Shown here: piece after piece, positions 1 through 18,191 of the stretch
Layout: the number at the start of each line of letters is the position of its first letter
Numbering within the stretch: position 1 is the first letter of the stretch
DNA from: Candidatus Margulisiibacteriota bacterium
GTDB lineage: Bacteria > Margulisbacteria > WOR-1 > O2-12-FULL-45-9
DNA length: 64,000 bases
Reading direction: 5' to 3'
Assembly: GCA_034723395.1 (NCBI GenBank)
Contig: JAYEOW010000024.1
Span: 22,205-86,204 of the forward strand
Program-made: the position numbers and the translations under genes
Notes under the pieces: model-generated
The model's database searches: none
Told to the model about the DNA's origin: nothing
The model's input: only the letters and a program-made list of their open reading frames with translations

Positions 1-39
1 TCCTGATACTATAAAATGTTTTCAGGAGGGTTTTTTTCT

Positions 40-1602
40 ATGTTATTTACGAACTCTTTATATTATAAAAAGTTGAAGGAGCTTGCCGGCTCCTCCAAGC
101 CAGACCGGCCTAAAGGCTTTGATGAAGCTTTCACCGTAAAAACCGAACATGCTTACTTTGACTTTTCCCGCCAGCTTGTCACCTCGGATGTCATGCAATC
201 GCTCTTTGAACTAGCCAAAGAAAGAAATTTAAAAGATAAGATTGAAGCCATGTTTAAGGGTGATAAAATCAACAAAACTGAAAACCGATCGGTTCTTCAT
301 GTTGCCCTGCGTAGTGGAGAAAATCCTGAGGTAGAGGCAGTCCTGGCCAAGATCAAATCCTTTTCCGAAGAAGTTCTATCTGGAAAGAGAACTGGCGCAA
401 CTGGCAAAAAGCTTAAAAATATTGTATCCATTGGCATTGGTGGATCCTATCTTGGACCCGAATACTTCGCGGTTGCCCTTCGGCCATACGCTCAAAAGGA
501 TATGAATCTTATCTTTGTAGCAAACGTTGACGGGACCGATTTTGCCGAAAAAACTGCCGGGTTAGATCCCGCAGAGACACTTATTATTATTGTTTCGAAA
601 ACCTTTACTACTGCAGAAACGATGTTAAATGCAGATACCGCAAAAAAATGGATTCTGGACGGATTAGAAAATCACCCCGAGGCCATAAAAAAACATTTTG
701 CCGCGGTTTCAACTGCCAAGGATAAAGTCAAAGCTTTTGGAATTGATGCAGAAAACATGTTCGGATTCTGGGATTGGGTCGGCGGACGTTTTAGCGCAAC
801 TTCAGCAGTTGGAGCGGTCCCGCTATCGCTTTATCTCGGATTTGATAATTTTAAAAAGATACTCGATGGCGCCAAGTGGATGGATGAGCACTTTAGAAAT
901 GTCCCTTTTGAACAAAATATACCGGTCATTTCGGCCTTAATAGATATCTGGAATATTAATTTCCTGGGATTAAAGACTCGCGCGCTGCTCCCCTATTCCC
1001 AAGGATTGGCAAAACTTCCCGCCCATACCCAACAGGTAGAGATGGAGAGCAATGGAAAACGGGTAGATCTGGAAGGAAATCCAATTGATTTTGATACGGG
1101 AGAGGTTGTTTTTGGAGAGCCGGGAACAAACGGACAACACTCTTTTTATCAATTGCTTCACCAGGGCGCCCAGATCATCCCCTCTGATTTCGTCGGCTTT
1201 ATTAAACCTCAGTATCAACTAGGTAAATCAACTGATAAAACAGTTACTCATCATCAGGAACTTATGACCAATTTTTTGGCACAACCTGACGCTTTAGCTT
1301 TCGGCAAAAAAGATTCCAACCCGGCAAAGGACTTCCCCGGCAACCGGCCTTCGAGTTCCATGCTATTAGAGGAGCTTAATCCGTTTACTGCTGGTCTCCT
1401 CCTTGCCTGGACCGAACATCGAGCCGCGACCAAAGGATTTATTTGGGGGATCAACAGTTTTGATCAGGAGGGGGTTCAGTTAGGTAAAGTTTTAGGTAAA
1501 GATCATCGAAGGAGAATGTTAGAGTTTAATTCATCTGGAAAAGTTGATGTTAAAGGATTAAGCCCATCGACCGCAGCCATGCTTAAGAGGATATTAGCTT
1601 AA
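40..1602 (+). CDS. pgi: glucose-6-phosphate isomerase
   Basis: Motifs IGIGGSYLGP, SKTFTTAET, FWDWVGGRFS, MESNGK, GTNGQHSFYQLLHQG, INSFDQ.GV.LGK. Start moved from 16 to ATG 40 because AGGAGG lies at 24-29. Confidence 0.97.
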   Translation: MLFTNSLYYKKLKELAGSSKPDRPKGFDEAFTVKTEHAYFDFSRQLVTSDVMQSLFELAKERNLKDKIEAMFKGDKINKTENRSVLHVALRSGENPEVEAVLAKIKSFSEEVLSGKRTGATGKKLKNIVSIGIGGSYLGPEYFAVALRPYAQKDMNLIFVANVDGTDFAEKTAGLDPAETLIIIVSKTFTTAETMLNADTAKKWILDGLENHPEAIKKHFAAVSTAKDKVKAFGIDAENMFGFWDWVGGRFSATSAVGAVPLSLYLGFDNFKKILDGAKWMDEHFRNVPFEQNIPVISALIDIWNINFLGLKTRALLPYSQGLAKLPAHTQQVEMESNGKRVDLEGNPIDFDTGEVVFGEPGTNGQHSFYQLLHQGAQIIPSDFVGFIKPQYQLGKSTDKTVTHHQELMTNFLAQPDALAFGKKDSNPAKDFPGNRPSSSMLLEELNPFTAGLLLAWTEHRAATKGFIWGINSFDQEGVQLGKVLGKDHRRRMLEFNSSGKVDVKGLSPSTAAMLKRILA

Positions 1603-1663
1603 TAAACTCGGCCTCCCCCTACGCTCTCCAAGCTCCGGGGGACATGTCGGAGATTATCTTCAG
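1583..1663 (-). pseudogene. relic ligA 3' end no. 1, interrupted by a 33-nt in-frame palindromic insertion
   Basis: Minus strand reads LKIIS[DMSPGAWRA*G]EAEFIKLISS*, versus intact LigA ...[13 protein letters not shown] and relic no. 2 [12 protein letters not shown]. Overlaps the pgi stop. Confidence 0.75.
1615..1646. repeat. short GC-rich hairpin repeat, CCYCC-TWCGCT..AG.T.CGGRGG type
   Basis: ccccc-tacgctctccaagctcc-ggggg-acatg aligns with the infB-internal copy cctcc-ttcgctaaagtttc-ggagg-gtaag at 8517-8541 (- strand). Confidence 0.6.
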
Positions 1664-1665
1664 GT

Positions 1666-1694
1666 TTCCCAAACATGCAGGAATACGCTATAAT
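1666..1694 (+). promoter_or_regulatory. putative sigma70 promoter, probably giving a leaderless transcript for the DUF5674 gene
   Basis: TTCCCA (1666-1671), 17 nt, TATAAT (1689-1694). ATG follows at 1702 with no Shine-Dalgarno in between. Confidence 0.5.
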
Positions 1695-1701
1695 AAGATT
1701 T

Positions 1702-2043
1702 ATGAAAATTGTTAGCAATCCGATAACACTACAAGAGATCAAGCAAATGGCCAAAAGTAAATTTGGCAACTTCGTTAAAGCAGTGGTAGACATCGAGCGT
1801 TCCTTAATTGTACTCGACGCTGAGCTGCATGCCGATGAGGAAGCTCTATTAATTGAAAACGGATCAAAATCTCATGATTTATGGGGTATAAACCTGTATC
1901 CCGATCTCCCATTTGAAGATTTCATTGAATACGATTCTATGATCAACCTTAAGCCTTCAGAGAACAATCGAAGTCGCGGGGTTGAAAGCCCTGAAATAAG
2001 GGAAAAAATAACCCAGATCGTAAGGAAGTTCATCAAACTATGA
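1702..2043 (+). CDS. DUF5674-like conserved protein
   Basis: KAVVDIER...AELHADEE.LLIENGS...LWGINLYP...IEYDSMINLKP..NNRSR, recognised from memory as the DUF5674 pattern. Start placed at ATG 1702. Confidence 0.75.
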   Translation: MKIVSNPITLQEIKQMAKSKFGNFVKAVVDIERSLIVLDAELHADEEALLIENGSKSHDLWGINLYPDLPFEDFIEYDSMINLKPSENNRSRGVESPEIREKITQIVRKFIKL

Positions 2044-2366
2044 CTCCGCAACATCAAGAACTGGCCTCTGGAAAATGGAAATCTTTGAGCTTTGTCGAGC
2101 AAATGGCAAATATCGGAAGCGAGGTAGAAAGGGCTATAAGCTGGCGGAATAAGGCCAATCAAGAATATAGCCGCTTGGCTTTTGAACGATCTCTTGAGCT
2201 TTTGGATTTATCACTTTCCGCCGGACTATCCTTTCCACGATTAAAAGAACTAACTCGCCTCAGAGAAATGCTTGCTGATTATTTTGTTTTCGGGAATAGT
2301 TTTAATTCGACGGACTCCCAGTGGCAGAAATATTTCTTAGCCTTTAACTTTGCGGCCAGAGCCTAA
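2040..2366 (+). CDS. conserved helical hypothetical protein, translationally coupled to the DUF5674 gene
   Basis: ATGA overlap with the upstream stop. Motif [18 protein letters not shown]...ERSLELLDL; 108 aa that look all-helical. Confidence 0.75.
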
Positions 2367-2478
2367 TAAATTCGGCTTCGGAGATAATCTTGAGGCCGAG
2401 TTTTTTTGCCTTCTCAGCCTTCGATCCAGGATCATGCCCTACCACCACATAGTCGGTCTGCTTAGAAACTGACGAAGA
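2344..2478 (-). pseudogene. relic ligA 3' end no. 2 (BRCT tail)
   Basis: Translates [44 protein letters not shown], versus Lig[42 protein letters not shown]. 32 of the first 37 aa identical; no start codon. Confidence 0.92.
2368..2407 (+). terminator. possible intrinsic terminator lying within the ligA relic sequence
   Basis: Stem aaattcggcttc / gaggccgagttt followed by a T7 run, directly after the 2040-2366 stop. Confidence 0.5.
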
Positions 2479-2501
2479 TTGAAAGATGAATTCCCAGGGG
2501 G

Positions 2502-2574
2502 AACCACCCCTTCTGTCCCTCGACCCCTCGACAAGCTCGGGGCTCGGGACATCTTCCCCTTATAAGGGGGAAGA
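2502..2574. repeat. compound REP-like palindrome with a nested hairpin
   Basis: aaccacccc..[gtccctcga(cccctcgacaagctcgggg)ctcgggac]..tcttccccttataagggggaaga. Confidence 0.8.
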
Positions 2575-2820
2575 ACACGAATGCGCTGATATCTCTTTCT
2601 TGATTTGTTTAACAACAAGATCAATGTCTGAAAAGATCTCATCATTTGTACATCTGAAAACCCGAATTCCAATACTTTCGAATATCCTTTGGCGCTCCTG
2701 ATCATAGATCTTTTGGTCTTCATCAAGATGATATCCACCATCAACTTCAATTGCCAATTTTAATTCGGGCGAGTAAAAATCAATCACAAAACCGCCAATA
2801 CTGTTGTCATGTCTTAATAT
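2560..2820 (-). pseudogene. DUF559 / Vsr-like endonuclease, N-terminally truncated
   Basis: SIGGFVIDFYSPELKLAIEVDGGYH...YDQERQ...GIRVFRCTN is the DUF559 core. The usual N-terminal helix and the KFRRQ motif are missing, and an in-frame stop lies just upstream. Confidence 0.75.
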
Positions 2821-2829
2821 AAATAATAG

Positions 2830-2956
2830 TCTCCCCCTTTATAAGGGGGAGATAAAGAGGGGGTCGTTATACTCAAAACCTTCCTTTCCTTTATAAGGGG
2901 GAGATTTAGAGGGGGTTGTTGGAACCACCCTCCCCTCACGATATCAGAGGGGGTCG

Positions 2957-2959
<3 letters not shown>
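2830..2959. repeat. cluster of REP-like palindromes CCCCCTTTATAAGGGGGAGA...AGAGGGGGT
   Basis: Copies at 2830-2869 and about 2884-2916, plus a tail copy at 2940-2959 (gatatcagagggggtcgtta) that contains the ligA stop codon. Confidence 0.8.
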
Positions 2960-4977
<2,018 letters not shown>

Positions 4978-5400
4978 CAGAATTGTACTGGTCGGGATAA
5001 GAACACTCTCCAGCCGCCCTACTTTTGCAAGGGTGATGATTGTGTCCATGTTTACCGCCTGGGTAATATGGAACGGCCGGGCATAGGTTCGCATTAGTTT
5101 CGAAAGGTGCGCGCCGCAACCTAGATCATCACCTATATCAGAAGCCAGCTGGCGAATGTAGGTTCCCTTCGTACACATAACCTCAATCGTCACCTTAGGA
5201 TGTTCCCCTGCCTCGAAGTTGATCAGCTTAATGCTGTGGACCGTTACCTTCCTCGGCTCCCGCTTAACTTCGATCCCCTCCCTAGCTAGTTTATAAAGCC
5301 GTTTCCCTTTAACCTTAACCGCCGAATACATCGGCGGCGTCTGTAGTATTTCACCCTTATATTTTTTTATTATTTCTTCGATTTCTTTGATTGAAGATTT

Positions 5401-5428
5401 ATTTGTAATTTGACATTTGTCATTTGAA
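5401..5428. repeat. four degenerate 7-nt tandem repeats inside truB
   Basis: atttgta atttgac atttgtc atttgaa, encoding SNDKCQITN. Confidence 0.6.
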
Positions 5429-5687
5429 ATTATTTGTCCGTCACTATCCAAAGTATCAGTCCTAATCCCCAAGGTCATTTCGGCAAGATACCCCTTATCT
5501 CCGCTCATAAAATGCTGAATTGACTTAGTCGCTTTTCCAATGAAGATAGGAAGAACACCGGTCGCGTTTGGATCAAGCGTGCCCGAATGGCCTACCTTTT
5601 TAGTTCTAGAGAGGTTCCTGATCTTAGCGCACACGTCAAACGAGGTCCATCCCTGCGGTTTATTTACGATGATTATTCCATCCATAT

Positions 5688-6665
5688 CTACACCAGATAT
5701 TTCATCGCTTTTAAATATTTTGTTACTTCGGCGATGACCTTTTCCTTGGCATCCTCAATATTACCAGAAATTATCGCTCCGGCGGCGCGTATATGCCCGC
5801 CGCCGCCAAATCGCTTGGCAATATCTGACACATTCACTTTTTCCTTCGACCTTAAATTTACCTTGACCTTATTATGATCTTCACGAAATTGGATCGCTAC
5901 CTCTACCCCTTCGATCGATCGGATAATATCCACCAATCCGACCAGGTCCTCCCCCTTTGCTTTTATTCTATCCATCATCTCCTGGGTAACCGTTATCCAG
6001 GCAGCTTTCCGGTCGGGTGATGTCTCTAATGTGGCCAGCGCCAACGCAAGCATGTGGATACTGGCAATGCTTTTTGTATCATAGATCTTTGTTGTTATGT
6101 CATGTGTATCTACACCGGCTTTGATCAGATCCCCCGCCATTTCAAAGGTTGCGGCGGAAGTATTTTCATAGCGGTAATTCCCGGTATCAGTGATCAGGGC
6201 CGCGTAAAGGTTCTCGGCCATCTCTTCAGTGATTTCAACCTCTAAATATTTTGCCAGCCTGTATACCAGTTCTGCGGCAGAGGAACATTTCTCCACAAAA
6301 TTCATATCGCCGTAGTTTGTATTGTCTGGATGATGGTCGATATTTATAACCTTATTGGCAATCTCCCTGATATCAACGTCATCCCCCAAACGGTTTTTGC
6401 TGGATGAATCTACCGCTACCAAAAGATCATAATTAAGATCGTTCCGCAATTCGTTCTTTACTTTTTCCATCCAGGGGAGAAATCGATAGACGCGCGGGAT
6501 GCCGTCTTTGGAATACATGTCGGTATTGATCCCCATGCTGGTCATGATCATCGCCATGCTGATCATCGATCCGATCGAATCTCCGTCCGGATCGACATGG
6601 GAGACGACCAGCGCGGTGCGGGCTCCTTTGAGCGCTTTTTTAATGGTGGCTAGAATTTCTCTCAC
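5688..6665 (-). CDS. nrnA: DHH-family bifunctional oligoribonuclease / pAp phosphatase
   Basis: H..PDGDS.GS, IDHH, TDTG.Y, GGGGH.RAAG; canonical position between rbfA and truB. Confidence 0.9.
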   Translation of the reverse strand: MREILATIKKALKGARTALVVSHVDPDGDSIGSMISMAMIMTSMGINTDMYSKDGIPRVYRFLPWMEKVKNELRNDLNYDLLVAVDSSSKNRLGDDVDIREIANKVINIDHHPDNTNYGDMNFVEKCSSAAELVYRLAKYLEVEITEEMAENLYAALITDTGNYRYENTSAATFEMAGDLIKAGVDTHDITTKIYDTKSIASIHMLALALATLETSPDRKAAWITVTQEMMDRIKAKGEDLVGLVDIIRSIEGVEVAIQFREDHNKVKVNLRSKEKVNVSDIAKRFGGGGHIRAAGAIISGNIEDAKEKVIAEVTKYLKAMKYLV

Positions 6666-6987
6666 GTTTTAGGATACCCAGGACCTTGTCCCCTTTTTCA
6701 AGCGAATCGTCACGGACAAACCGGATGTTGGGGACCTCCCTTAACTCAAGCACATTACCTAATTTACCGCGGATAAAACGGGTCGCGGAAATAAGCCCGG
6801 CCATGCTATCTTTTTTCTGGGATTCATCACCAAGGATACTGACAAAGATCATGGCGTTTTCGAAGTCAGGGGAAATATCGACATTAGTAATGCTGACAAA
6901 ACCGATGCGCGGGTCCGACACATCTTCGCGGATTATTTCGCTGATCTCTTTCCTGATTAATTTACTTAGACGCTCTACCCTGCTCAC
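6640..6987 (-). CDS. rbfA: 30S ribosome-binding factor A
   Basis: RVERL...I..EIS.II...V.DPRIG.V.IT.V..SPD...LR.VP.I.F..D.S. GTG start at 6987 after AGGAGG. Confidence 0.93.
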   Translation of the reverse strand: MSRVERLSKLIRKEISEIIREDVSDPRIGFVSITNVDISPDFENAMIFVSILGDESQKKDSMAGLISATRFIRGKLGNVLELREVPNIRFVRDDSLEKGDKVLGILKRERNSSHH

Positions 6988-8992
6988 TCTTCCCCCTCCT
7001 CTTTTCCCGGATCTCATAGGCTTCTATGCTATCGCCTTTTCTAAATCCAGGGAAACTGGGGATCACGACTCCGCACTCAAAACTCTGATCAACTGATTTG
7101 ACGTCATCCTTAAAACGTTTTAGCGATTCGAGCTTTCCTTCAAACACCTGATCGGCGCCTCTGGAGATACGGACCATCCCTCCCCTAACTAACTTACCAT
7201 CTTTCACAAATGATCCGGCAATAACGCCGACCTTCGATGATTTAAATATAGAACGGACCTCGGCATGGCCAACGACCACCTCTTCGTACTCCGGTTCGAG
7301 CAGCCCCTCCATTGCCAGCTTTACGTCTTCGATCAATTTATAAATAATATTGTAGCGGCGGACCTCGATCCCCTCTTTCTGGGCGACCGCCTCCGCGCTC
7401 CCCTCAAAACCGACATGGAAACCGATCACGATCGCGGACGATGCGCGCGCCAGCATAATGTCCGATTCGGTGATCGGGCCTACGGCGTGATGGATAATAT
7501 TTATATGGATATTCTCAATAACTAATCCGGTCACCGATTGGGAGATAGCATCGATCGATCCCTGGACGTCGGCTTTTAAGATCAGGGCGAGGTCCTTTTT
7601 CTCGCCCTCTTTAACATGTTTGGAGAAGTCTTCCAGAGAGAGGACCTTTCCAGACAATCTCTTTTTCTTTGTTTCCAGTTTCTGCTCGGCCATTTCACGG
7701 GCCACTTTTTCGGAAGAAACAACTCTTAGCGTATCGCCCGCGCCTGGGACTTCGACACACCCCAAAACCTCGACCGGGGTCGACGGGCCTGCCTTTTTCA
7801 TCCGTTCACCCTTATCGTTAAAAAGCGCGCGGACCTTCCCATAAGTGGCGCCGATGTTAAAAACATCACCAATTTTTATGGTACCGTTCTGGATCAATAC
7901 CGAAGCGACCGGGCCACGCCCTTTATCTAACCTGGATTCAATGACCACCCCTGAAACCGTTCCATCCGGATCCGCTTTCAGCTCCTGCATTTCGGCAACC
8001 AATAAGATCATTTCTAAAAGATCGTTAACTCCCTCTCCTTTTAAGGCGGAGGTGTGGACCATAACCGTTTTGCCGCCCCAGTCTTCGGGGACCAACTCTA
8101 ATTCGGATAATTGCTGTTTAACGCGATCGGGATTAGATTCTTCCCGGTCGATCTTATTGATCGCGACAATGATCGGAACCTTGGCCGCTTTGGCGTGGTC
8201 GATCGCTTCTAATGTCTGCGGTTTTACTCCGTCGTCGGCCGCAACCACAAGGATCGCGATATCAGTTACCCTGGCGCCGCGGGCGCGCATCGTAGTAAAA
8301 GCCTCGTGGCCGGGGGTATCAAGGAAAGTTACGTCTTTACCATGTACCTTTACCTGATAAGCTCCGATATGCTGGGTTATCCCTCCCGCTTCACCTTCGG
8401 CAACCCTGGTTTTCCTGATGGCATCGAGCAGTTTTGTCTTACCGTGGTCGACATGCCCCATAACGGTAACGATCGGAGAGCGATGTTTTAAGTTTTCAGC
8501 TTTAACTTTTACCTTACCCTCCGAAACTTTAGCGAAGGAGGATTTCTTGATCGTGATATCTTTTCCGAGGTTACCTGCGATCTCTTTGGCAGTTTCAGCG
8601 TTGATCCGCTGGTTGATATTGGCCATAATTCCCTTCATCATTAATGCCTTGATCAATTCTGAAGGCTTTACTTTTATTTTCTCGGAGAGGTCTTTGACCG
8701 AAATATCATCGGTCTCGATAACCGGCCCTTTTGGAGCTTCAATTTTCTTCTCTTCTTTTATCGGCTCTTCAACAACTTCTTCTATTACTTCTACTTGCCC
8801 CGAGCTCTGTCGAGGGGCTTCAACTTTTTCTTCGGATGGTTTAACAACTTCTCTAACAACTTTAGCCGATTCTTCATCGATCGATGAAGCCGCGGTTTTG
8901 ACTTCGACCCCTAAATCCTTGAGCATTTTTATGAGCTCTTTGGACGCAATTCCAAGCTCTTTTGCTAATGTCCCTACTTTTACTTTTTTCAT
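6962..8992 (-). CDS. infB: translation initiation factor IF-2
   Basis: [28 protein letters not shown]; two IF2_N regions. Start either ATG 8992 or GTG 9013. Confidence 0.97.
8517..8541 (-). repeat. palindromic repeat in frame within infB (encodes SSFAKVSEG)
   Basis: Hairpin cctcc-ttcgctaaagtttc-ggagg; related to the copy at 1615-1646. Confidence 0.65.
8794..8818 (-). repeat. palindromic repeat in frame within infB (encodes APRQSSGQ)
   Basis: gcccctcgacagagctcggggcaag differs by a one-nt indel from the intergenic cccctcgacaagctcggggc at 2524-2543. Confidence 0.85.
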
Positions 8993-9006
8993 TTTTATTA
9001 TTATAT

Positions 9007-9112
9007 CCCTCACCCAATATTTTCTCTATCCTCCGGCCATCCAGACCGTCCCTCTCCCTGTGGGAGAGGGAGTGAATGAAAAACCATTAGACAGATAGCG
9101 CCTGGGTGAGGG
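9007..9112. mobile_element. 106-bp symmetric MITE/REP-like element between nusA and infB
   Basis: Terminal inverted repeats ccctcaccc (9007-9015) and gggtgaggg (9104-9112). Central palindrome ccctctccc-tgt-gggagaggg (9050-9070). Spacers of 34 and 33 nt. Confidence 0.6.
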
Positions 9113-9121
9113 CTGTAAACC

Positions 9122-10276
9122 CTACCCTTTCAACTTTCCCAAAGCTTCTTCCGGCACAATACTATTTGCCGCTTTGACTTCAAACCCGAGTTCCTTTAAC
9201 TTTTCGATCAACTCTTTGCTCTTAATCCCCATTTCTTTTGCAAGAGCACTAACTTTGACCTTTTGTTCTTTCTCTTCTTTTACTTCTTCTATCTTGGCTT
9301 TTGCCTTCACCGGTTTCTTGTCCTTCTCCGAGTCAGGAAGAATATCCAATTTCCATCCGGTAAGCTTTACCGCCAGGCGGACGTTGATCCCTTCCCGGCC
9401 GATCGCTAAAGAAAGCTCTTTATCCGGCACATAGACTTTGGCGGAGGTATCTTCCTCGTTAAGGACGATCTTGCTCGGTTTTGACGGGCTTAAGGCATTG
9501 TTTATAAAGGCGACTGGATCTTTTTTCCATTCGATAATATCGACCCTCTCCGGCCCTAATTCTCTTACGATATTCTGGATCCGGTTTCCCATATGGCCGA
9601 CGCATGTCCCGACCGCTCCGATCTTATTATCGTTTGAATATACTGCTATCTTAGTTCTCTTCCCCGCCTCTCTGGCGATCGCTTTGACCTCCAGCACTCC
9701 ATCTTTTATTTCCGGGACCTCAAGCTCAAAAAGTTTTTTTATTAATCCGGGATGCGATCTGGAAATTACGACGAACGGCCCGCGCGGGGTCTTTTTTGTT
9801 TCGACAATGTAAACTTTCACGCGTTCACGCTCGGAAAGCTGCTCGCCCGGGATCTGTTCCGGCGGAGTTAAGACGGTCTCAATCCGGCCGATGTTCACCA
9901 GATAGCCGCCGTATTCCCTTCGCTGGACCGTTCCGGTTATCAATTCTCCCTGTTTTTTATCGAACTCACTAAAGGTCATTTCTTTTTCCGCTTCCCTGAT
10001 CCTTTGGATGATAACCTGTTTTGCGGTTTGAGCGGCTAATCTGCCGAAATCTTTGGGGGTAACATCCTGCTTCTTTTTCCCTTCCTTGTGGATTATCCTC
10101 ACTTCTCCGTCATCTTTTATCTCCACTTCAAGGTTTTCTTCTTCCTCACCCCTGAAACGTTTTTTGGCAGCAGATAGTAAAGATACTTTTATAGCATCAA
10201 CGAGGACATCCTTGTTGATTCCCCGTTCTTTTTGGATTTCCTCCAACATCTCAGAAAATCGCTCTATTTTCATCAA
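9122..10276 (-). CDS. nusA: transcription termination/antitermination factor NusA with a C-terminal IF2_N-like domain
   Basis: FGRLAAQTAKQVIIQ.IREAE, S1 domain, AREAG.RTKIAV, AIGREG.NVRLA.KLTGWKLDI. Confidence 0.96.
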   Translation of the reverse strand: MMKIERFSEMLEEIQKERGINKDVLVDAIKVSLLSAAKKRFRGEEEENLEVEIKDDGEVRIIHKEGKKKQDVTPKDFGRLAAQTAKQVIIQRIREAEKEMTFSEFDKKQGELITGTVQRREYGGYLVNIGRIETVLTPPEQIPGEQLSERERVKVYIVETKKTPRGPFVVISRSHPGLIKKLFELEVPEIKDGVLEVKAIAREAGKRTKIAVYSNDNKIGAVGTCVGHMGNRIQNIVRELGPERVDIIEWKKDPVAFINNALSPSKPSKIVLNEEDTSAKVYVPDKELSLAIGREGINVRLAVKLTGWKLDILPDSEKDKKPVKAKAKIEEVKEEKEQKVKVSALAKEMGIKSKELIEKLKELGFEVKAANSIVPEEALGKLKG

Positions 10277-10300
10277 AACTCCCTTGCCCCAAGGCTTATT

Positions 10301-10334
10301 AAAAAGACAAAAGTGGGAACTACGCCCACTTTTG
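10301..10334 (-). terminator. rimP/nusA-leader type attenuator hairpin
   Basis: On -: caaaagtggg-cgtagtt-cccacttttg-tcttttt, between the promoter and nusA. The GTGGG/CCCAC stem is characteristic of rimP-nusA leaders. Confidence 0.75.
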
Positions 10335-10346
10335 CTTATCGTTCAG

Positions 10347-10375
10347 ATTATACAGCCGGTGGCTGTACTTGTCAA
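10347..10375 (-). promoter_or_regulatory. consensus sigma70 promoter of the nusA operon
   Basis: TTGACA (10375-10370), 17 nt, TATAAT (10352-10347). Confidence 0.9.
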
Positions 10376-10382
10376 ACCTAGG

Positions 10383-12035
10383 CTACATCATTCCGCCCAT
10401 TCCACCCATGCCTCCCATACCGCCTGGCGGCATTGCCGGAGCAGCCTTTTCTTTATCAGGCTTTTCGGCAATTAATGCCTCAGTGGTAAGGAGCAGTGAT
10501 GCGATAGAAGCGGCATTCTGCAGCGCGGATCGGGTGACCTTTAAAGGATCGACAATGCCAAACTTGAACATGTCGCCATACTCAAAGTTCTGGGCATTGA
10601 ATCCGCTGCCATCCGTCTCTTTCTTGACATTTTCTACAACGACCGAGCCTTCCATGCCAGCGTTGGTGGCGATCTGCTTCAACGGCTCTTCCAGGGAGCG
10701 TCGAACGATCGATATCCCTACTCTTTCATCACCCTGGGTCCCGGCTTCAAGCTTCTCCAACATTGGTAAAATTCTTACAAAGCTCGATCCGCCTCCGGCG
10801 ATGATCCCTTCCTCAACCGCAGCCCTGGTAGCAGAAAGGGCATCTTCGATCCGATGCTTCTTCTCTTTGAGCTCCGTCTCGGTCGGCGCGCCAGCTTTAA
10901 TTACGGCAACTCCGCCGGAAAGCTTTGCTAATCTCTCCTGGAGTTTTTCTTTATCGTAAGAAGAATCAGAAACCTCGATCTCTTTCTTGATCTGCGCAAT
11001 GCGGGATTTTAATGAATCTTCCCGACCGGCGCCTTCAATGATCGTGGTATCTTCTTTCTTGACGATGATCTTTTTGGCCTTTCCGAGCCAATTGTCTTGA
11101 ATCCCTTCGAGGGTCAACCCTTTATCTTCGGATACGACCTCTCCTCCGGTGACAACTGCGATATCTTCGAGCATGGCTTTTCTTCGGTCGCCAAAGCCCG
11201 GGGCTTTAACCGCAACCGCGTTCAAGGTTCCGCGAAGCTTATTAACAACCAGGGTTGCTAATGCTTCTCCCTCGATATCATCAGCGAGGATGAGCAGAGG
11301 TTTGTTTAACTGGACAGTTTTTTCTAGGGTCGGAAGGAGATCTTTAACCGCTGAGATTTTCTTATCAGTGATCAAGATCATTGCGTCTTCCAGCACACAT
11401 TCCATTCTTTCACGGTCAGTGACCATGTAGGGAGAAGCGTAGCCTTTATCAAACTGCATTCCTTCGACAACTTCAAGAGAATTATCAATTCCCTTTGATT
11501 CTTCAACCGTGATAACCCCGTCTTTACCGACTTTTTCCATCGCGTCGGCGATCAGGTCCCCGATCTCAGAATCGTTGTTGGCAGAGATAGAAGCGACCTG
11601 CGCGATTGCCTCTTTACTCTCTACCGGCCGGCTGAGCTTTTTTAGCTCTCCAACCGCAAGCTCAACTGCCTTGTTGATCCCGCGCTTTAATCCCATCGGA
11701 TTAATGCCGGAAACTACTGCTTTGAGCCCTTCTTTAAAAATGATCTGACCTAAAACGGTCGCGGTGGTAGTTCCATCCCCCGCGATATCGTTGGTCTTGG
11801 AAGCGATCTCTTTTAAAAGTTGTGCTCCCATATTTTCAAACGGATCTTCTAGATCTATCTCCTTGGCAATGGTGACACCATCATTGGTGATGGTTGGAGA
11901 TCCCCATTTTTTCTCGAGTACCACGTTCTTACCGCGCGGCCCCAGAGTTATTTTTACGGCGCTGGCTATTTTAGAGACCCCTTTTTCCATCGATCTCCAA
12001 GCGTCATCGCCGAATTTCATTTCTTTACCTGGCAT
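10383..12035 (-). CDS. groL: chaperonin GroEL
   Basis: [32 protein letters not shown] tail. Confidence 0.99.
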
Positions 12036-12052
12036 ATCTAACCTCCTTAATT

Positions 12053-12349
12053 TTAGCTTTTAATCGCTAATATATCTCTTTCTTGTAAAATTACGTACTC
12101 TTCACCTTCGATCTTGACCTCGGTCCCGCCGTATTTGCTGTAGATCACCTTGTCTCCAATCTTTACCTCTAAAGCGATCTTCTGTCCGTTATCCAATACG
12201 CGGCCGGAACCAACGGCAACTATTGCGCCCTCTGAAGGTTTTTCCTTTGCGCTATCAGGAAGTACTATTCCTGATTTAGTTTTCTCTTCTGAAGGGGCTT
12301 GTTTTACAACCACTCTGTCTCCAAGCGGTTTTAGAATCTTATCTACCAT
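12053..12349 (-). CDS. groS: co-chaperonin GroES
   Basis: [37 protein letters not shown]. Confidence 0.98.
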
Positions 12350-12376
12350 TTATTTCACCTCCTGAAATCCGTGTTG

Positions 12377-12403
12377 TTAGCACTCTAACTGCGTGAGTGC
12401 CAA
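12377..12403. promoter_or_regulatory. CIRCE element (HrcA operator)
   Basis: TTAGCACTC-N9-GAGTGCCAA upstream of groES; one mismatch to consensus. Confidence 0.95.
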
Positions 12404-12431
12404 TTGTAGCATGGGGGTTAAAAGTTGTCAA
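12403..12431 (-). promoter_or_regulatory. sigma70 promoter of groESL
   Basis: TTGACA (12431-12426), 17 nt, TACAAT (12408-12403) with an extended TG; abuts CIRCE. Confidence 0.9.
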
Positions 12432-12448
12432 TAGTTTTAAGGTTCCTC

Positions 12449-12672
12449 AGCAAAAAGTGTGCCAACTATACAAGGGGGTTCGGTGTAACCCCACAATGAA
12501 TTGTGGGGAATTTCTCTCTATTATGATTACGGAGAACAGATATTCCACACATTTTAATGTGTGGTTTCAAGTCTATGTTTTGTAGGCACCAAATTATTAG
12601 AAAGGTTAGTAACAGTTTTGCCTGAAATAAAAAGTACATGTTTTTCTTTTAGTTTTTGGCACACTTTTTGCT
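12449..12672. repeat. 17-bp perfect inverted repeats (each a sigma54 -24/-12 match) enclosing two palindromes
   Basis: agcaaaaagtgtgccaa (12449-12465) and ttggcacactttttgct (12656-12672). Internal ccccacaat-ga-attgtgggg (12489-12508) and ccacacatt-tt-aatgtgtgg (12545-12564). Confidence 0.8.
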
Positions 12673-12706
12673 ATAGACCCGGACATATTTGCAGTGCCAT
12701 TGCAAA

Positions 12707-13750
12707 TTATACATCTCTCGAAGAATATACCTTAACCCGAAGGAGAAATGCCCAGGCAAATGCGGTCATGATTGCAAGAATAAGCAATAATGATATGAAT
12801 TGCTGAAAATTGGCGTTGATCATCGATAATGCGATCGCCCCCAGGATCATCTGTACCGCATAGAGGGTTAAAACGGTCATCTTCTGCGAAAAACCCATCA
12901 GATGAATGCGATGGTGCGAATGGTCCTTGCCCGCCGTGCTCATTTTAATGTGATGCAGAAAACGGTTTACAAACACGAAACAGGTATCGAAGATCGGTAT
13001 TCCAAGGATGATCAGCGGCACAACAAACGATATGAATTGAACTCTCGGGATATTCAAGATCAACGCGATGTTCCAGAGTTTAAATATATTTAGTTTTAGA
13101 CTTATGACCGCCAGCAGAAATCCCATCAAGGTAGATCCTCCCTCGCCTAAAAAGATAGATGCGGGATTAAAATTATATCGTAAAAATCCTAACGAAGCGC
13201 CAGCTAGGGCTAATGCAATTAATGCCAGACTGGGCTGGTTATTGTTCATCGCCAGTATACATAAGAATATCGAAGCAATAAAACCGACGCCAGTTACCAA
13301 CCCATCCATTCCATCCAGCATATTCATCGAATTGGTCATAAAGGTTATAAAACAGGCTACGAGGACCCAATTAATAATATCGATCCTGAATAGATTAAAT
13401 GATATACCAGTTACCAATACAAATATAAAAGAGAAGGCCAAATGAGACCAGATCTTATAACGGGCACGGACCTTTATCCCGGCATCGTCTAAGAGACCAA
13501 ATAAAATAAAAAGCAGACCGATTCCGGCAATGCCTAAAAGTTCTCGAACATCGGCCCCAGAGAGCCAGAAAGATCCGATAAAAGCAAAATAGATCGCGAT
13601 TCCCCCGGTCAGAGGGATTGGCTTATCATGGATTTTACGTTCGCCGGGTTTATCGAGGATGTTAAATTTAACCGCTAGCTGTTTTGCGATCGGAGTAAAA
13701 AGCAAAGAAAAAATAAGGCCGATGGTAAAAACAACAAAATAACTAATCAT
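12707..13750 (-). CDS. WecA/TagO-type undecaprenyl-phosphate HexNAc-1-phosphate transferase
   Basis: D.P..RKIH..P.P..GG.AI, GLLDD, NSMN.LDG.DGL, YNFNPASIFLG; multiple TM segments. Confidence 0.9.
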   Translation of the reverse strand: MISYFVVFTIGLIFSLLFTPIAKQLAVKFNILDKPGERKIHDKPIPLTGGIAIYFAFIGSFWLSGADVRELLGIAGIGLLFILFGLLDDAGIKVRARYKIWSHLAFSFIFVLVTGISFNLFRIDIINWVLVACFITFMTNSMNMLDGMDGLVTGVGFIASIFLCILAMNNNQPSLALIALALAGASLGFLRYNFNPASIFLGEGGSTLMGFLLAVISLKLNIFKLWNIALILNIPRVQFISFVVPLIILGIPIFDTCFVFVNRFLHHIKMSTAGKDHSHHRIHLMGFSQKMTVLTLYAVQMILGAIALSMINANFQQFISLLLILAIMTAFAWAFLLRVKVYSSRDV

Positions 13751-14882
13751 TCGTGACTATATTCTCCCAAAGGTGGCTTAATTTGGCCGTGCCGGTAATT
13801 AATTTAACTACCCTATGCGATACATTATCGATCTCATATTCAAAAGGGATCTTATGCTGTTTGGTATTATTCCACTCGGAAGTGACCAGATCAACCGAAT
13901 TATTTATCGTTGCCGGGTCCAGTCCGGTTAAAATTATGTTTCCAGAATCGATCGATTCTGGACGCTCGGTAGTGTTGCGGATCGTGACCGCCGGGAACGA
14001 AAGGATCGATGACTCTTCGCTGATCGTACCGCTATCGGAGATAACGCAAAAGGCGTTCATCTGCAAGTGGACATAATCGAGAAAGCCGAACGGTTTTAAG
14101 AACTTGATCTTGGGATCTATTTTGATCCCTTTTATCTTCTCCAATTGTTTTCTTGTTCTCGGGTGAGTTGAGACAATGATCGGCATTTTATACTCTTTGG
14201 CGAGCTTGTTTAAAGCGGTAAGCAGCGAAAGCAGGTTTTTCTTTAGGTCAATGTTCTCTTCACGGTGCATACTTACCAGCATATACTGTTTTGGTTTTAA
14301 TTTAAGCTTATTTATGATTTTAGAAGCTTTGATCTTATCCAAATTCGCTACCAGGACCTCTTTCATCGGTGACCCGGTCAGGTATATCTGCCGTGGATGG
14401 ATCCCTTCCGCCAATAAATTTCTTCTCGCATGCTCGGTGTATACCAGATTAAAATCGCTGATATGATCGATGATCCGCCGGTTGATCTCTTCGGGCACAT
14501 TGAAATCAAAACATCGATTGCCTGCTTCCATATGATAGATCGGGATCTTCATCCTCTTGGCAATGATCCCGCCGATCGAGCTGTTCGTATCCCCCAGGAT
14601 CAGGACCGCGTCCGGTTTTTCTTTAACTAAGACTTTTTCAACCTCTATGATTATATTCCCATACGCCTTACCGAGAGATGAGCAATCTACGCCAAGAAAA
14701 TAATCCGGTTTTCTAACATTTAAATCCTTAAAGAAGATTTCGTTTAGCTCATAATCGTAATTCTGTCCGGTATGGACAATAACCTGGTTCATGTATTGAT
14801 CGACCAGCGCCATTACCTGCGAAAGGCGGATGATCTCCGGACGAGTACCCAAGATAGTCATTACTTTTAATTTATTTTTCAA
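13743..14882 (-). CDS. fnlC: UDP-sugar 2-epimerase, non-hydrolysing (FnlC/WbjD/CapG)
   Basis: GTRPEIIRLS, HTGQNYDYEL, HMEAGNRCFD..VPEEINR, SDSGTI.EE; follows fnlA and fnlB. Confidence 0.9.
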   Translation of the reverse strand: MKNKLKVMTILGTRPEIIRLSQVMALVDQYMNQVIVHTGQNYDYELNEIFFKDLNVRKPDYFLGVDCSSLGKAYGNIIIEVEKVLVKEKPDAVLILGDTNSSIGGIIAKRMKIPIYHMEAGNRCFDFNVPEEINRRIIDHISDFNLVYTEHARRNLLAEGIHPRQIYLTGSPMKEVLVANLDKIKASKIINKLKLKPKQYMLVSMHREENIDLKKNLLSLLTALNKLAKEYKMPIIVSTHPRTRKQLEKIKGIKIDPKIKFLKPFGFLDYVHLQMNAFCVISDSGTISEESSILSFPAVTIRNTTERPESIDSGNIILTGLDPATINNSVDLVTSEWNNTKQHKIPFEYEIDNVSHRVVKLITGTAKLSHLWENIVTND

Positions 14883-16006
14883 GATTTAAATACCTCCTCG
14901 GGATATGTATCCTTATCATTTGGATCGTAGAGCTCATTGCACCAAAAAAGCGTATAAAGATCATTCTTACCAACGTTTTCAATATGGTGGGTATGGAAGA
15001 TCGGAATGTCAACAAATGCCGGCCTCCCCGACTTGATCTTGAATTCCTTGATCTCCTTGGTCCCGACCCTTCTCATCCGGATAACCGCATCGCCTTCGAT
15101 AACACAGAATTTCTCCGCTTTCCTTATATGGTAATGGTTTCCCCGGATATGTCCAGGTTTTGTTTTGGAGAAAAACACCTGTCCGCCCTGGGCCAGCTTT
15201 AGTATCTCAAAAAGCTCCCCACGCTGGTCGCTATGAACCTGCGGATTATGGTTGAGTTTTTCATACTCTAAATAAGAGAGGAAAACATTATACAAATTTA
15301 CCAAAAAAGGATCGTTAAGTTTTGGAATAATCCCATTCATGAAATAAGATTCTTTAAATTGCTCTAATATCTCCAGCAATTCAGAAACCTTTATTTTCTT
15401 TGTCCCTTTAATCCTAAGATTATCAACTCCCTTAGGAGAAGATAGGACTATTTCATAAATAGTTTCTGTCAGATCATTGATATAGATAAATTCCACTTCG
15501 CGGTCGGCTAGTATTTTTGGCTCTTCGCCGCGGGTTAATTGATAACAAAATGTGGCAACCACCGAATTATAGAAAGGCCGTCCGCGATCGCCAAAAACAT
15601 TAGGGATAATTAGATTGGCCAGTGAAGCATTGTTCTTTTTCGCCCATTTTTCAAATATCGAACATGAGTCCTTTTTTGACCGGCCAAAAGCAGAATCAGT
15701 TGAGCTCAAAATCGAAGAGGCAAATACCAAATTTATTTTCTTCCCACTTTTCTCTATCGCTTTTACTAAGGTATTTGCCAGATCGATATTTGTCTTATAA
15801 ATATCATCCTCATCGCCTCGGTTCATCCCCGCTAACTGGACAATACAATCACATTTTTTTACCGAGTTGAGTAATTCTGACGGTTGTTTAAATGAAGCAT
15901 CTTCGATCGGAATAGCTGTAATATTATTATCACGGGAGAGACGTTCCAGCAGATGCGAGCCGATAAATCCGGAATAACCGGTTACCCCGATAATTTTTTT
16001 ACTCAT
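14879..16006 (-). CDS. fnlB: FnlB/WbjC/CapF reductase-epimerase (SDR plus cupin)
   Basis: TGYSGFIG, PNVFG..GRPFYNSVVATFC, cupin motif RGNHYH..K.EKF.V. Confidence 0.88.
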   Translation of the reverse strand: MSKKIIGVTGYSGFIGSHLLERLSRDNNITAIPIEDASFKQPSELLNSVKKCDCIVQLAGMNRGDEDDIYKTNIDLANTLVKAIEKSGKKINLVFASSILSSTDSAFGRSKKDSCSIFEKWAKKNNASLANLIIPNVFGDRGRPFYNSVVATFCYQLTRGEEPKILADREVEFIYINDLTETIYEIVLSSPKGVDNLRIKGTKKIKVSELLEILEQFKESYFMNGIIPKLNDPFLVNLYNVFLSYLEYEKLNHNPQVHSDQRGELFEILKLAQGGQVFFSKTKPGHIRGNHYHIRKAEKFCVIEGDAVIRMRRVGTKEIKEFKIKSGRPAFVDIPIFHTHHIENVGKNDLYTLFWCNELYDPNDKDTYPEEVFKS

Positions 16007-17007
16007 GAGAGATCGTTCTGTATTTCGGGCAGTGAAAGAAGGAGCTTTTCCATTTCAGGGATACTGAGACGTTGGGTGTTTGAAGAATTATACCCCTCTT
16101 TAGGGATCTTTCCCTCTTGGCCTTTGGTAAAAAATTTATCATAATCAATTTTTCGATCACCTTTAATCCGATAAAATTTATCAAATTCTTCGGAAGCAAA
16201 AAGTTCTTCCTGGGTAACAAGGGTCTCATGCATCTTTTCCCCTTCACGGATACCGACTTCTTTAATTTCATTATCTACTTTAAATATATTTGTCACCGCT
16301 TTGGCCAGATCACCCATCGTAGCAGCTCCCGCTTTTCGTACAAAAATATCACCGTTCACTGCCTTATCCATAGCAAAAATAACTAGCTCCACAGCAACCG
16401 ATAGCGGCAGTAAAAATCTTGTCATGTCCGCATTGGTTACGGTCAGCGGTTTGCCCGATTTTGCCTGTTTTACAAACAGCGGAATAACTGACCCCCTTGA
16501 GTACATAACATTGCCGTAGCGGACCCCGCAAAACGTTGTTTTTGAATGTGCATTATACGAGCGGGCGATCATCAGCTTTTCCATGACCGCTTTGCTCATC
16601 CCCATCGCGTTTATCGGATAAACCGCTTTGTCGGTGCTTAAAACAACAACTTTATTTACTTCGTTGTATTCGGCAGCATCCATTACGTTGTTGGCGCCTA
16701 AAATATTTGTTTTAACGGCTTCAATCGGGAAAAATTCACAAGAAGGAACCTGCTTTAATGCCGCAGCATGAAAAACGTAGTCTACCCCTTTCATTGCACT
16801 AAAGATCGAATCCCGGTCTCGAATATCCCCAACCACGAATTTGAGCACCGGGTTATTAAGAGTAATCCGCATATCGTGTTGTTTTTTCTCATCCCGGCTA
16901 AATATAATGATCTGTTTGGGGGAATACTTCTCTAAGATCGCATGAAAGAAGGCATTACCAAAAGAGCCGGTTCCGCCCGTTACCATTATCGTTTTTTCAT
17001 GAAACAT
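16003..17007 (-). CDS. fnlA: UDP-GlcNAc 4,6-dehydratase/epimerase FnlA/WbjB/CapE
   Basis: TGGTGSFG, FSRDEKKQ, HAAALKQVPSCEFFP, STDKAVYPINAMGMSK, RYGNV..SRGSVIP. Confidence 0.92.
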   Translation of the reverse strand: MFHEKTIMVTGGTGSFGNAFFHAILEKYSPKQIIIFSRDEKKQHDMRITLNNPVLKFVVGDIRDRDSIFSAMKGVDYVFHAAALKQVPSCEFFPIEAVKTNILGANNVMDAAEYNEVNKVVVLSTDKAVYPINAMGMSKAVMEKLMIARSYNAHSKTTFCGVRYGNVMYSRGSVIPLFVKQAKSGKPLTVTNADMTRFLLPLSVAVELVIFAMDKAVNGDIFVRKAGAATMGDLAKAVTNIFKVDNEIKEVGIREGEKMHETLVTQEELFASEEFDKFYRIKGDRKIDYDKFFTKGQEGKIPKEGYNSSNTQRLSIPEMEKLLLSLPEIQNDLS

Positions 17008-18188: not shown

Positions 18189-18191
18189 CGG

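What the first reader, a model, noticed from the sequence alone, without database searches (positions are those of the whole stretch)
8512..8818. Two different intergenic palindrome families lie in frame inside the essential infB gene
Seen: IF2 linkers contain APRQSSGQ (8794-8818), whose DNA matches the intergenic hairpin at 2524-2543 except for one extra base, and SSFAKVSEG (8517-8541), whose DNA is a hairpin related to 1615-1646. The 1616-1648 insertion is itself frame-preserving (33 nt) in the oldest ligA tail. Established: Rickettsia palindromic elements insert into coding regions, but are much longer. Inference: very short hairpin elements of several families add peptides to low-constraint linkers of core proteins in this lineage.
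Basis: partly seen in the sequence, partly recalled or inferred. Interest (0 to 1): 0.75.

Follow-up and report, generated by a model that had tools for sequence, protein, structure and literature searches.

The report
REP-like hairpin repeats inside infB
Two tiny GC-rich hairpin repeats that are scattered through this bacterium's genome also sit, in frame, in the flexible linkers of its translation initiation factor IF2, a new example of a phenomenon already known from REP and Rickettsia palindromic elements.

Summary
infB (window 6962-9013, minus strand) carries copies of two dispersed hairpin families in frame.

**Family A.** Window 8795-8818 encodes APRQSSGQ. Its core is a conserved loop, TCGAC-N2-5-GCTC, between a covarying 5-bp stem. 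The genome holds about 40 copies against 0-1 in reversed-pattern controls. The infB copy matches two other loci over 25 nt.

**Family B.** Window 8516-8542 encodes SSFAKVSEG. It matches another locus at 24 of 25 nt. The family is smaller, about 15 clear copies.

Both elements lie in hypervariable, low-confidence linkers between Pfam domains.

The strongest evidence for insertion is in another gene. A family-A copy in YchF is a clean 24-nt (8-codon) insertion, missing from all 28 ortholog rows. Other copies sit in RnfC, NusG and several C-terminal tails. All 6 internal copies have the loop length that gives a 22-nt hairpin. Two relatives carry other palindrome families in their IF2 linker.

The B copy adds only 2 residues compared with orthologs, so it is not a simple addition.

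The family occurs in many phyla (451 copies in one genome) and resembles CGTC-tagged REPs. No flanking Y1 transposase was found. Intragenic REPs are already published, so this is a new member of a known kind.

The parts
6962..9013 (-). infB (IF2), a 683-aa ORF. The likely true start is the ATG at 8992.
   Evidence: the Atlas record starts at residue 8.
8795..8818 (-). Family-A hairpin copy in frame, in sense orientation. It encodes APRQSSGQ (aa 66-73) in linker 1, between the two IF2_N repeats. Stem GCCCC/GGGGC, loop TCGACAGAGCTC.
   Evidence: Identical over 25 nt to C28 and C55 copies. Model pLDDT is below 50 across residues 53-88.
8516..8542 (-). Family-B hairpin copy in frame. It encodes SSFAKVSEG (aa 158-166) in linker 2, between IF2_N and the GTPase domain. 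Stem CCTCC/GGAGG, inner part TTC-GC-TAAA-G(T)-TTC.
   Evidence: Model pLDDT is below 50 across residues 150-171.
2515..2550 (+). Intergenic composite hairpin. A family-A core (2524-2543) sits inside the loop of a second, outer A-like hairpin: GTCCC TCGAC [..] GCTC GGGAC.
   Evidence: Fold of -17.4 kcal/mol, z -2.2. The same composite recurs at C24:19152, C50:27115 and C50:28547.
1616..1648 (+). A 33-nt hairpin insertion of a third type (CCCCC TACGCTCTCCAAGCTCC GGGGG plus tail). Two paralogous sequence copies lack it.
   Evidence: gap-free 33-nt gap in both pairwise alignments. Fold.

Best explanation
The two infB segments are copies of dispersed REP-like hairpin repeats that became part of the coding sequence. 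They persist because they fall in disordered inter-domain linkers and keep the reading frame.

Family A is a 21-23 nt stem-loop. It has a conserved 11-13 nt loop (TCGAC-N2-4-GCTC), a variable 5-bp GC-rich stem that covaries, and often a 3' AAG. It spreads as a discrete unit by an unidentified copy mechanism. That unit is 24 nt for the 22-nt hairpin forms.

Most surviving copies lie between genes in the sense orientation. Copies that land inside genes survive only where the peptide is tolerated and the length is a multiple of three.

**Shown:** repeat membership, hairpin covariation, one exact 24-nt insertion in a conserved gene, and linker location.

**Inferred:**
- that the infB A copy arose the same way;
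- that the B copy arose by insertion with compensating loss, or by patch replacement;
- that the peptides have no role of their own;
- that mobilisation works on single-stranded hairpins, as proposed for REPs.
For: **Family size and controls**
- 28 exact copies against 0 for the reversed pattern.
- 40 copies with up to 1 substitution against 1.

**Unbiased loop-only scan**
- 79 hits. Of these, 26 have 5 of 5 and 17 have 4 of 5 complementary flank pairs.
- None of 28 control hits exceeds 3 pairs, and 1 of 79 does when the partner is slid by 2.
- The 26 perfect hairpins use 12 different stems.

**Location and orientation**
- 22 of 40 copies are intergenic, although called ORFs cover 93.5% of the genome.
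- Orientation is sense in 24 of 28 informative copies.

**Insertion in YchF**
- The insert is 24 nt (8 aa) and is present only in G000 among 29 rows, covering 28 genomes including G000.
- It lies after helix 15-23, with pLDDT below 50 at residues 28-33.

**Frame selection**
- All 6 internal genic copies have a 3-nt variable loop, against 15 of 34 other copies. Fisher one-sided p = 0.014.
- The codon-shuffle control is exceeded.

**infB itself**
- Without its 8 residues, linker 1 has the same length (28 aa by my count) as the G013 linker and resembles it.
- None of the ortholog IF2 sequences printed carries either peptide.
- IF2 linker 1 of G011 contains GCCTGCCGGCAGGC, which has 32 copies in that genome against 0 for the control.
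- IF2 linker 1 of G002 contains a B-type core identical to a second G002 locus.

**Other filled and empty sites**
- The 33-nt insertion is a filled site beside two empty paralogous copies.
- One hairpin is nested in another's loop.
Against: - **No empty infB allele.** The nearest orthologs share at most 69% protein identity and the linker cannot be aligned.
- **B is not additive.** Linker 2 has 21 residues against 19-21 in orthologs.
- **Possible constraint on B.** In contigs of a relative about 90% identical (run X2), window 8510-8563 shows no difference. Flanks differ at about 10% (8300-8509) and about 17% (8564-8645). This hints at nucleotide-level constraint rather than neutrality.
- **No mobilising enzyme.**
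  - G000 has only a 79-aa Y1_Tnp fragment, flanked by unrelated hairpins.
  - Y1_Tnp counts do not track element counts in 31 genomes.
  - None of 12 Y1_Tnp loci in 4 element-rich genomes is flanked by the element.
- **Unexplained biases.** The sense-strand bias, and reading frame 0 in 5 of 6 internal copies, are not explained by stop codons. The element is open in all six frames by my reading.
- **Method limits.** The gene calls come from a crude ORF and codon-usage caller of my own. The 'internal' class was defined after I had seen the data.
Confidence: 0.75

Rival explanations
1. The hairpins are selected RNA (or single-stranded DNA) signals. The infB copies would be kept for a function in the mRNA, such as pausing ribosomes between domains, stabilising or processing the transcript, or binding a protein through the conserved loop.
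For: - The loop is conserved while stems covary: 12 stems among 26 perfect hairpins.
- Orientation is sense in 24 of 28 informative copies.
- By my reading of the listed flanks, about ten copies sit directly 5' of a Shine-Dalgarno-like AAGGAGG or just after stop codons.
- The B region is invariant between G000 and an X2 relative about 90% identical, while its flanks differ.
- Both infB copies fall exactly between domains.
- The published REP literature proposes RNA-level roles (PMC3733652 and PMC12306157, passages read).
Against: - The YchF copy is unique to one genome among 28, so it is recent and not a conserved feature.
- Copy number ranges from 0 to 28 among genomes of one order.
- Some genic copies have decayed stems, namely NusG, RnfC and L3.
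- No RNA data were available.
- Linkers are simply where any insertion would be tolerated.
Confidence: 0.15
2. The matches reflect convergence or selection on the peptides (PRQSSGQ-like, SFAKxSEG-like) or on local composition, not copying of DNA.
For: The same reading frame (P-R-Q/L-...) recurs in IF2, NusG, L3, M20, YchF, RnfC, L31 and the amino-acid kinase.
Against: - The matches are identical at the codon level over 24-25 nt.
- Synonymous-codon shuffles give about 0.05 exact sense hits per shuffle, against 10 observed.
- Most family members are intergenic.
- The ortholog IF2 sequences printed lack the peptides.
Confidence: 0.03
3. Assembly artefact: repeats were wrongly joined into infB in a metagenome-assembled genome.
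For: - The genome is a 55-contig assembly.
- Independent Logan contigs of run X1 break at 8557-8569, near the B copy.
Against: - Two Logan contigs of X1 cover 8300-8569 and 8557-9100 with 0 differences and no indels.
- The ORF stays open with full-length homology to 29 orthologs.
- X1 is probably the source sample, so this support is not fully independent.
Confidence: 0.02

Closest known systems
CGTC-tagged REPs (Di Nocera, De Gregorio & Rocco 2013, PMC3733652), which include Neisseria dRS3 and Rickettsia RPE-4 and RPE-6
   Same: - Both are short GC-rich stem-loops dispersed in tens to hundreds of copies and found in several phyla.
- Most copies lie near gene ends.
- Head-to-head doublets occur in other phyla.
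- No dedicated transposase is known for either.
- In both, some units lie in frame inside genes for known proteins, in linkers, loops or termini (passages read).
- In other phyla, the AT-stem form of this hairpin carries a CGTC, TGTC or CCTC tag in 13 of 20 copies.
   Different: - In G000, 0 of 43 hairpins carry the tag, and only 3 of 43 start with A-T and T-A pairs.
- The simple fold is a 5-bp variable stem with an 11-13 nt conserved loop, not an 8-9 bp stem with a 4-5 nt loop.
- I could not see the paper's Figure 2 consensus sequences or its .xls supplements, so homology to the CGTC families is untested.
GTAG REPs / REPINs mobilised by RAYT (Y1, PF01797) transposases
   Same: Both have a size of 20-40 nt and a hairpin shape, are multicopy, occur as doublets in some genomes, and are proposed to be mobilised as single-stranded hairpins.
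   Different: - There is no GTAG tag.
- The only Y1_Tnp in G000 is a 79-aa fragment flanked by unrelated hairpins.
- Y1_Tnp counts show no correlation with element counts in 31 genomes.
- None of 12 Y1 loci in element-rich genomes is flanked by the element.
Rickettsia palindromic elements, RPE-1 type (Ogata et al. 2000; recalled, and cited in PMC3733652)
   Same: Palindromic repeats inserted in frame into genes that still encode functional proteins, adding surface peptides.
   Different: RPE-1 is about 100-150 bp by my recall, against 24 nt here. It comes from a different lineage and has a different sequence.

Membership tests
REP (generic definition as given in the PMC12306157 introduction) | Short (about 14-40 nt) palindromic stem-loop | tested here: met
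   The hairpins are 21-23 nt. 43 of 79 loop matches have at least 4 of 5 complementary flank pairs, against 0 of 28 control hits.
REP (generic definition) | Many copies per genome that share a consensus | tested here: met
   28 exact copies and 40 with up to 1 substitution in G000, against 0 and 1 for the control. One Chloroflexota genome holds 451 copies.
REP (generic definition) | Mostly extragenic, close to gene ends | tested here: met
   22 of 40 copies are intergenic although ORFs cover 93.5% of the genome. Several more overlap the last codons of genes.
REP (generic definition) | Transcribed | not testable with these tools
   No RNA run holds the stretch.
GTAG REP / RAYT system | Terminal GTAG tetranucleotide | tested here: not met
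   The commonest flanking tetranucleotides are CCTT, GCTT and ACTT. GTAG is not among the eight commonest flanking tetranucleotides on either side.
GTAG REP / RAYT system | A Y1 (RAYT) gene flanked by the repeats | tested here: not met
   None of 12 Y1 loci in 4 element-rich genomes has a flanking hairpin within 1.5 kb.
CGTC REP | Terminal CGTC, TGTC or CCTC tag | tested here: not met
   G000: 0 of 43 hairpins. Other phyla, AT-stem form: 13 of 20.
CGTC REP | Stem of 8-9 bp beginning with A-T and T-A pairs; loop of 4-5 nt; short unpaired tail | tested here: inconclusive
   Only 3 of 43 stems begin with AT. The simple register gives a 5-bp stem and an 11-13 nt loop. A bulged register gives about 7 bp and a 6-nt loop (my reading). 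A 3' AAG tail is common.
In-frame intragenic palindromic element (RPE-like behaviour) | A discrete insertion, absent from orthologs, that preserves the frame of a functional gene | tested here: met
   YchF has a 24-nt insertion absent from 28 ortholog rows. For infB itself the test is inconclusive, because the linker cannot be aligned.
MITE | 70-300 bp with terminal inverted repeats and a target-site duplication | tested here: not met
   The unit is 24-33 nt. Only a 2-nt boundary ambiguity is seen at the two filled sites.

The most novel reading that the evidence does not exclude
The TCGAC-N-GCTC hairpin is a pan-bacterial REP lineage without a transposase of its own. Its conserved loop is the recognition site of an unknown, widely conserved host factor. 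Its 23-24 nt unit would then be among the smallest DNA units that still spread, able to remodel essential proteins (IF2, YchF) and to insert into its own loop. The variable stem and fixed loop, the sense-strand bias and the lack of any RAYT link would all follow from recognition of the loop in single-stranded nucleic acid.
Probability: 0.25. Interest if true: 0.7.

Novelty: new member of a known kind. Interest (0 to 1): 0.42.

Why it matters
**Protein evolution.** A 24-nt hairpin repeat can be fixed inside highly conserved translation GTPases: IF2 linkers, and YchF directly after the P-loop helix. The linker of one essential gene has been hit independently by different palindrome families in three genera.

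**Annotation.** These repeats create lineage-specific peptides, extended C-terminal tails and spurious N-terminal extensions. Such features should not be read as functional motifs.

**REP biology.** The family is well suited to asking what mobilises or binds REPs that have no RAYT. It has a conserved loop and a free stem, it lacks the tags of published REP superfamilies in this genome, and it reaches hundreds of copies in unrelated phyla.

Tried and rejected
- **Rfam.** A scan of window 1-20000 at E up to 1 gave no relevant family.
- **Mismatch-only search.** A search for the intergenic 19-mer found only that 19-mer itself, because the infB copy differs by an inserted base.
- **Fuzzy-regex script.** It timed out and was replaced by blastn-short.
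- **Folding energies.** For the two infB copies they are not significant against shuffles, so structure rests on family covariation.
- **Strict family-B pattern.** It barely exceeds its control in relatives: 10 hits in 6 of 31 genomes against 3 control hits. The looser pattern gives 33 against 8 in G000. A still looser first attempt gave 19 against 12.
- **Hairpin in G014's IF2 linker.** GGCAGAG..CTCTGCC is single-copy, so it is not a repeat family.
- **P2 palindrome GCCTGCCGGCAGGC.** It has no convincing internal genic copy in G000.
- **RnfC.** The linker is too variable for a clean indel.
- **Sequencing runs.** No RNA holder is listed. Only X1 holds the stretch. Contigs show no indel variant. 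The X2 relative gives no cover over 8651-8812, so the state of the A site there is unknown.
- **Genome-contig scan.** Only the flank-pairing excess is usable: 49 of 135 hits have at least 2 extra complementary pairs.
- **Protein Atlas.** It did not reveal the taxon.
- **Paper searches.** The search for four 14-nt motif strings found nothing. The keyword search did not turn up this motif either.
Full report
**What is at the coordinates.** The window is G000:C24:22205-86204. infB is the minus-strand ORF at 6962-9013, 683 aa. Pfam finds two IF2_N stretches (the best at aa 102-150), GTP_EFTU at 180-338, EF-G_D2 and IF-2.
- APRQSSGQ is aa 66-73, window 8795-8818, DNA GCCCCTCGACAGAGCTCGGGGCAA.
- SSFAKVSEG is aa 158-166, window 8516-8542, DNA TCCTCCTTCGCTAAAGTTTCGGAGGGT.

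**Family A in the whole genome.** The assembly has 1.68 Mb in 55 contigs and 45% GC.
- The core CCTCGAC-N2-5-GCTCGGG occurs 28 times exactly, and the reversed pattern 0 times. With up to one substitution the counts are 40 and 1.
- The infB copy, with its flanks, is identical over 25 nt to copies at C28:24521 and C55:14207.
- I then searched for the loop alone (TCGAC-N2-4-GCTC), which does not presuppose a stem. Of 79 hits, 26 have 5 of 5 and 17 have 4 of 5 complementary flanking positions. None of 28 reversed-control hits exceeds 3, and only 1 of 79 reaches 4 when the partner is slid by two bases.
- The 26 perfect hairpins use 12 different 5-bp stems, such as GCCCC/GGGGC, ATCCC/GGGAT, GTCCT/AGGAC and GCATC/GATGC. 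The loop is therefore the constant part and the stem covaries.
- An A-A-G tail follows the stem in about half of the copies.
- Individually, the infB hairpins do not fold better than shuffles (z -1.0 and -1.2). The case for structure rests on the family.

**Where the copies lie.** I used a crude ORF and codon-usage gene caller of my own, which gave 1599 ORFs covering 93.5% of the genome.
- 22 of 40 copies are fully intergenic.
- Among informative copies, 24 are in the sense orientation of the surrounding genes and 4 are antisense.
- By my reading of the listed flanks, about ten sit just upstream of an AAGGAGG-like ribosome-binding site or just after a stop codon.
- Hosts of genic copies were checked with Pfam:
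  - Internal copies lie in IF2, YchF, RnfC, NusG (in the N-terminal extension before the NusG domain) and two ORFs without a Pfam family.
  - Copies in the last codons lie in ribosomal proteins L3 and L31, an amino-acid-kinase-family protein, an M20 peptidase and a glycosyltransferase. A sugar epimerase/dehydratase has a copy 28 codons from its end. Looser matches lie in the tails of argininosuccinate synthase and trigger factor.
- Within ORFs of at least 100 aa there are 10 sense and 1 antisense exact matches. Forty synonymous-codon shuffles gave 2 and 3 in total. With one substitution the counts are 15 and 2, against means of 0.97 and 1.18.

**Direct evidence of insertion.** YchF of G000 reads LSKA-PRLRSGRA-TAEVSNYPF. 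All 28 ortholog rows from the same order (27 genomes, since one gene appears twice) read LS(K/R)-AKA(E/N)VSNYPF with no gap elsewhere.
- At DNA level, 24 nt (CCT CGA CTT CGC TCG GGG CGA GCA, placement ambiguous by 2 nt) are added between codons that orthologs share.
- In an AlphaFold2 model (19 sequences, mean pLDDT 81.5) the insert follows helix 15-23 and has pLDDT below 50 at residues 28-33.
- All 6 internal genic copies have a 3-nt variable loop, giving a 22-nt hairpin that matches the 24-nt unit seen in YchF. Only 15 of 34 other copies do, and 18 of those have a 2-nt loop. Fisher one-sided p = 0.014. The class was defined after inspection and the numbers are small.
- The RnfC copy lies in a linker that is 5-8 residues longer than in most orthologs, by my count, but too variable for a clean indel.

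**infB itself.** The nearest IF2 orthologs share at most 69% identity, and linker 1 cannot be aligned with confidence.
- Without its 8 residues, linker 1 of G000 has 28 residues, the same as the G013 linker by my count. The two then resemble each other: [15 protein letters not shown] against KPVE-KVEEVVEEVKEEP.
- Neither peptide occurs in any of the ortholog sequences printed.
- The A copy is the only 20-nt window with GC of 75% or more in the N-terminal 196 codons.
- An AlphaFold2 model of IF2 is poor overall (7 sequences, pLDDT 63, pTM 0.30). It still gives two confident helical IF2_N domains separated by non-regular segments with pLDDT below 50, at model residues 53-88 and 150-171. These contain the A copy (model 59-66) and the B copy (model 151-159).
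- Two relatives show the same thing with other repeats:
  - IF2 linker 1 of G011 contains GCCTGCCGGCAGGC (encoding MPAGRQA), a palindrome with 32 copies in that genome and 0 in the control.
  - IF2 linker 1 of G002 contains CGAAGCTCGAAGAGCGAAGG, a B-type core identical to a second locus in G002.

**Family B.** The infB copy matches C29:35811-35835 at 24 of 25 nt and C17:7305-7327 at 22 of 23 nt.
- The strict pattern gives 4 copies in G000 and 6 more in 5 of 30 relatives, against 3 control hits overall.
- The generalised form CCTTCGC-N3-12-GCTTCGG gives 33 hits with up to one substitution, against 8 for the control. About 15 of these carry the outer CCTCC/GGAGG stem, and several lie in acidic or basic protein tails.
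- B is therefore a real but smaller family.
- The infB copy does not lengthen the linker by its own size. Linker 2 has 21 residues, against 19-21 in orthologs. It either replaced earlier sequence or was followed by a deletion.
- In contigs of a relative about 90% identical in run X2, window 8510-8563 shows no difference. Flanks differ at about 10% (8300-8509) and about 17% (8564-8645). This weak hint of nucleotide-level constraint speaks for the functional rival.

**Third element and nesting.** Window 1590-1700 carries a gap-free 33-nt insertion, a CCCCC..GGGGG hairpin plus tail, relative to both 2355-2440 and the ligA 3' end at 2958-3045. It is a second filled-versus-empty pair. The intergenic element at 2515-2550 is a family-A core lying in the variable loop of an outer A-like hairpin. 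The same composite recurs at three other loci.

**Wider distribution and known relatives.**
- The core occurs in 22 of 31 genomes of the order, with 0 to 28 copies and 0 for the control everywhere.
Chance hits are expected in GC-rich genomes. Even so, 49 of 135 matches have two or more extra complementary flank pairs.
- One form, GATCCCTCGAC-N-GCTCGGGATGAC, recurs in unrelated phyla, sometimes as inverted doublets.
- Counts in four such genomes are 47, 59, 451 and 6 copies, all with 0 for the control.
- PMC3733652 (abstract, section 6 and found passages read) describes GTAG- and CGTC-tagged REPs of 20-40 bp. It reports intragenic units in linkers, loops and termini, and no transposase for the CGTC class. 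It equates Rickettsia RPE-4 and RPE-6 with CGTC REPs.
- In other phyla the AT-stem form of this hairpin has a CGTC, TGTC or CCTC tag in 13 of 20 copies. In G000, 0 of 43 hairpins have it and 3 of 43 start with AT.
- Y1_Tnp (PF01797) is present in G000 only as a 79-aa fragment flanked by unrelated hairpins.
- Y1_Tnp counts do not follow element counts across 31 genomes. For example, there are 9 and 6 elements with no Y1, and 0 elements with 4 Y1.
- None of 12 Y1 loci in the four element-rich genomes has the hairpin within 1.5 kb.
- No Rfam family matches. A search of the paper library for four motif strings found nothing.

**Reading.**
- Best supported (0.75): these are REP-like repeats that spread as discrete short units. 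They are retained in genes only where frame and structure allow. The infB A copy is one such insertion, and the B copy is an older or remodelled one.
- Main rival (0.15): the hairpins act as RNA or single-stranded DNA signals, and the infB copies are kept for that reason.
- Peptide convergence (0.03) and misassembly (0.02) are disfavoured.
- The mobilising mechanism is unknown. A 2-nt boundary ambiguity at both filled sites (GC and TC) is too little to call a target duplication.

**Novelty.** The kind of event is published, so I file this as a new member of a known kind. The particular family appears undescribed in the two searches I made. Its features here are a fixed loop, a free stem, no tag in this genome and hundreds of copies elsewhere. 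I could not see the figures or the .xls supplements of PMC3733652, which may list related consensus sequences or hosts.

Noticed in passing
window 2369-2478 vs 2973-3082, and 1590-1700: The 3' end of ligA (ORF 2957-4921, minus strand) has two diverged extra copies upstream. Identity between 2369-2478 and 2973-3082 is 77%. On the plus strand, the copy at 2355-2420 looks like an intrinsic terminator (stem followed by a T-run) after the ORF that ends at 2366.
   Followed up: partly
window 2836-2868 and 2888-2920; also 2555-2575: Another short repeat, CCTTTATAAGGGGGAG.., built around a CCCCTTATAAGGGG palindrome, occurs twice in tandem-like spacing next to the family-A hairpin.
   Followed up: no
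G000 genome-wide (12-mer counts): Several more GC-rich repeat families have 13-18 copies: GATGGAGAGGGG hairpins, TTGGGTGAGGGC, GGGAGAGGGAGT and GGGGAATGAAT. They often adjoin family-A hairpins in composite units, which read-through ORFs translate as PSPxxMERG-like tails.
   Followed up: no
L031 (G000:C19:36334-39558), about 1225-1790: A truncated 79-aa Y1_Tnp (IS200-like) ORF is flanked by its own hairpins of the form GTCCCGACAAT..ATTGTCGG(T/G)TCC, which differ from families A and B.
   Followed up: partly
L228 (G004 RnfC) and L212 (G008 RnfC): The same RnfC linker carries long lineage-specific inserts in two other genera. In G004 the insert folds strongly (-45 kcal/mol over 171 nt). Neither was checked for repeat membership.
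   Followed up: no
G033 (Chloroflexota MAG reached through L120): This genome holds 451 copies of TCCCTCGAC-N-GCTCGGGA, many as inverted pairs about 54 nt apart (REPIN-like doublets). Its two Y1_Tnp genes are not flanked by them.
   Followed up: partly
window 8557-8569: Independent Logan contigs of run X1 break here, and those of X2 break inside the B copy (8514-8541). This is as expected if the B element is a repeat in those samples too.
   Followed up: no
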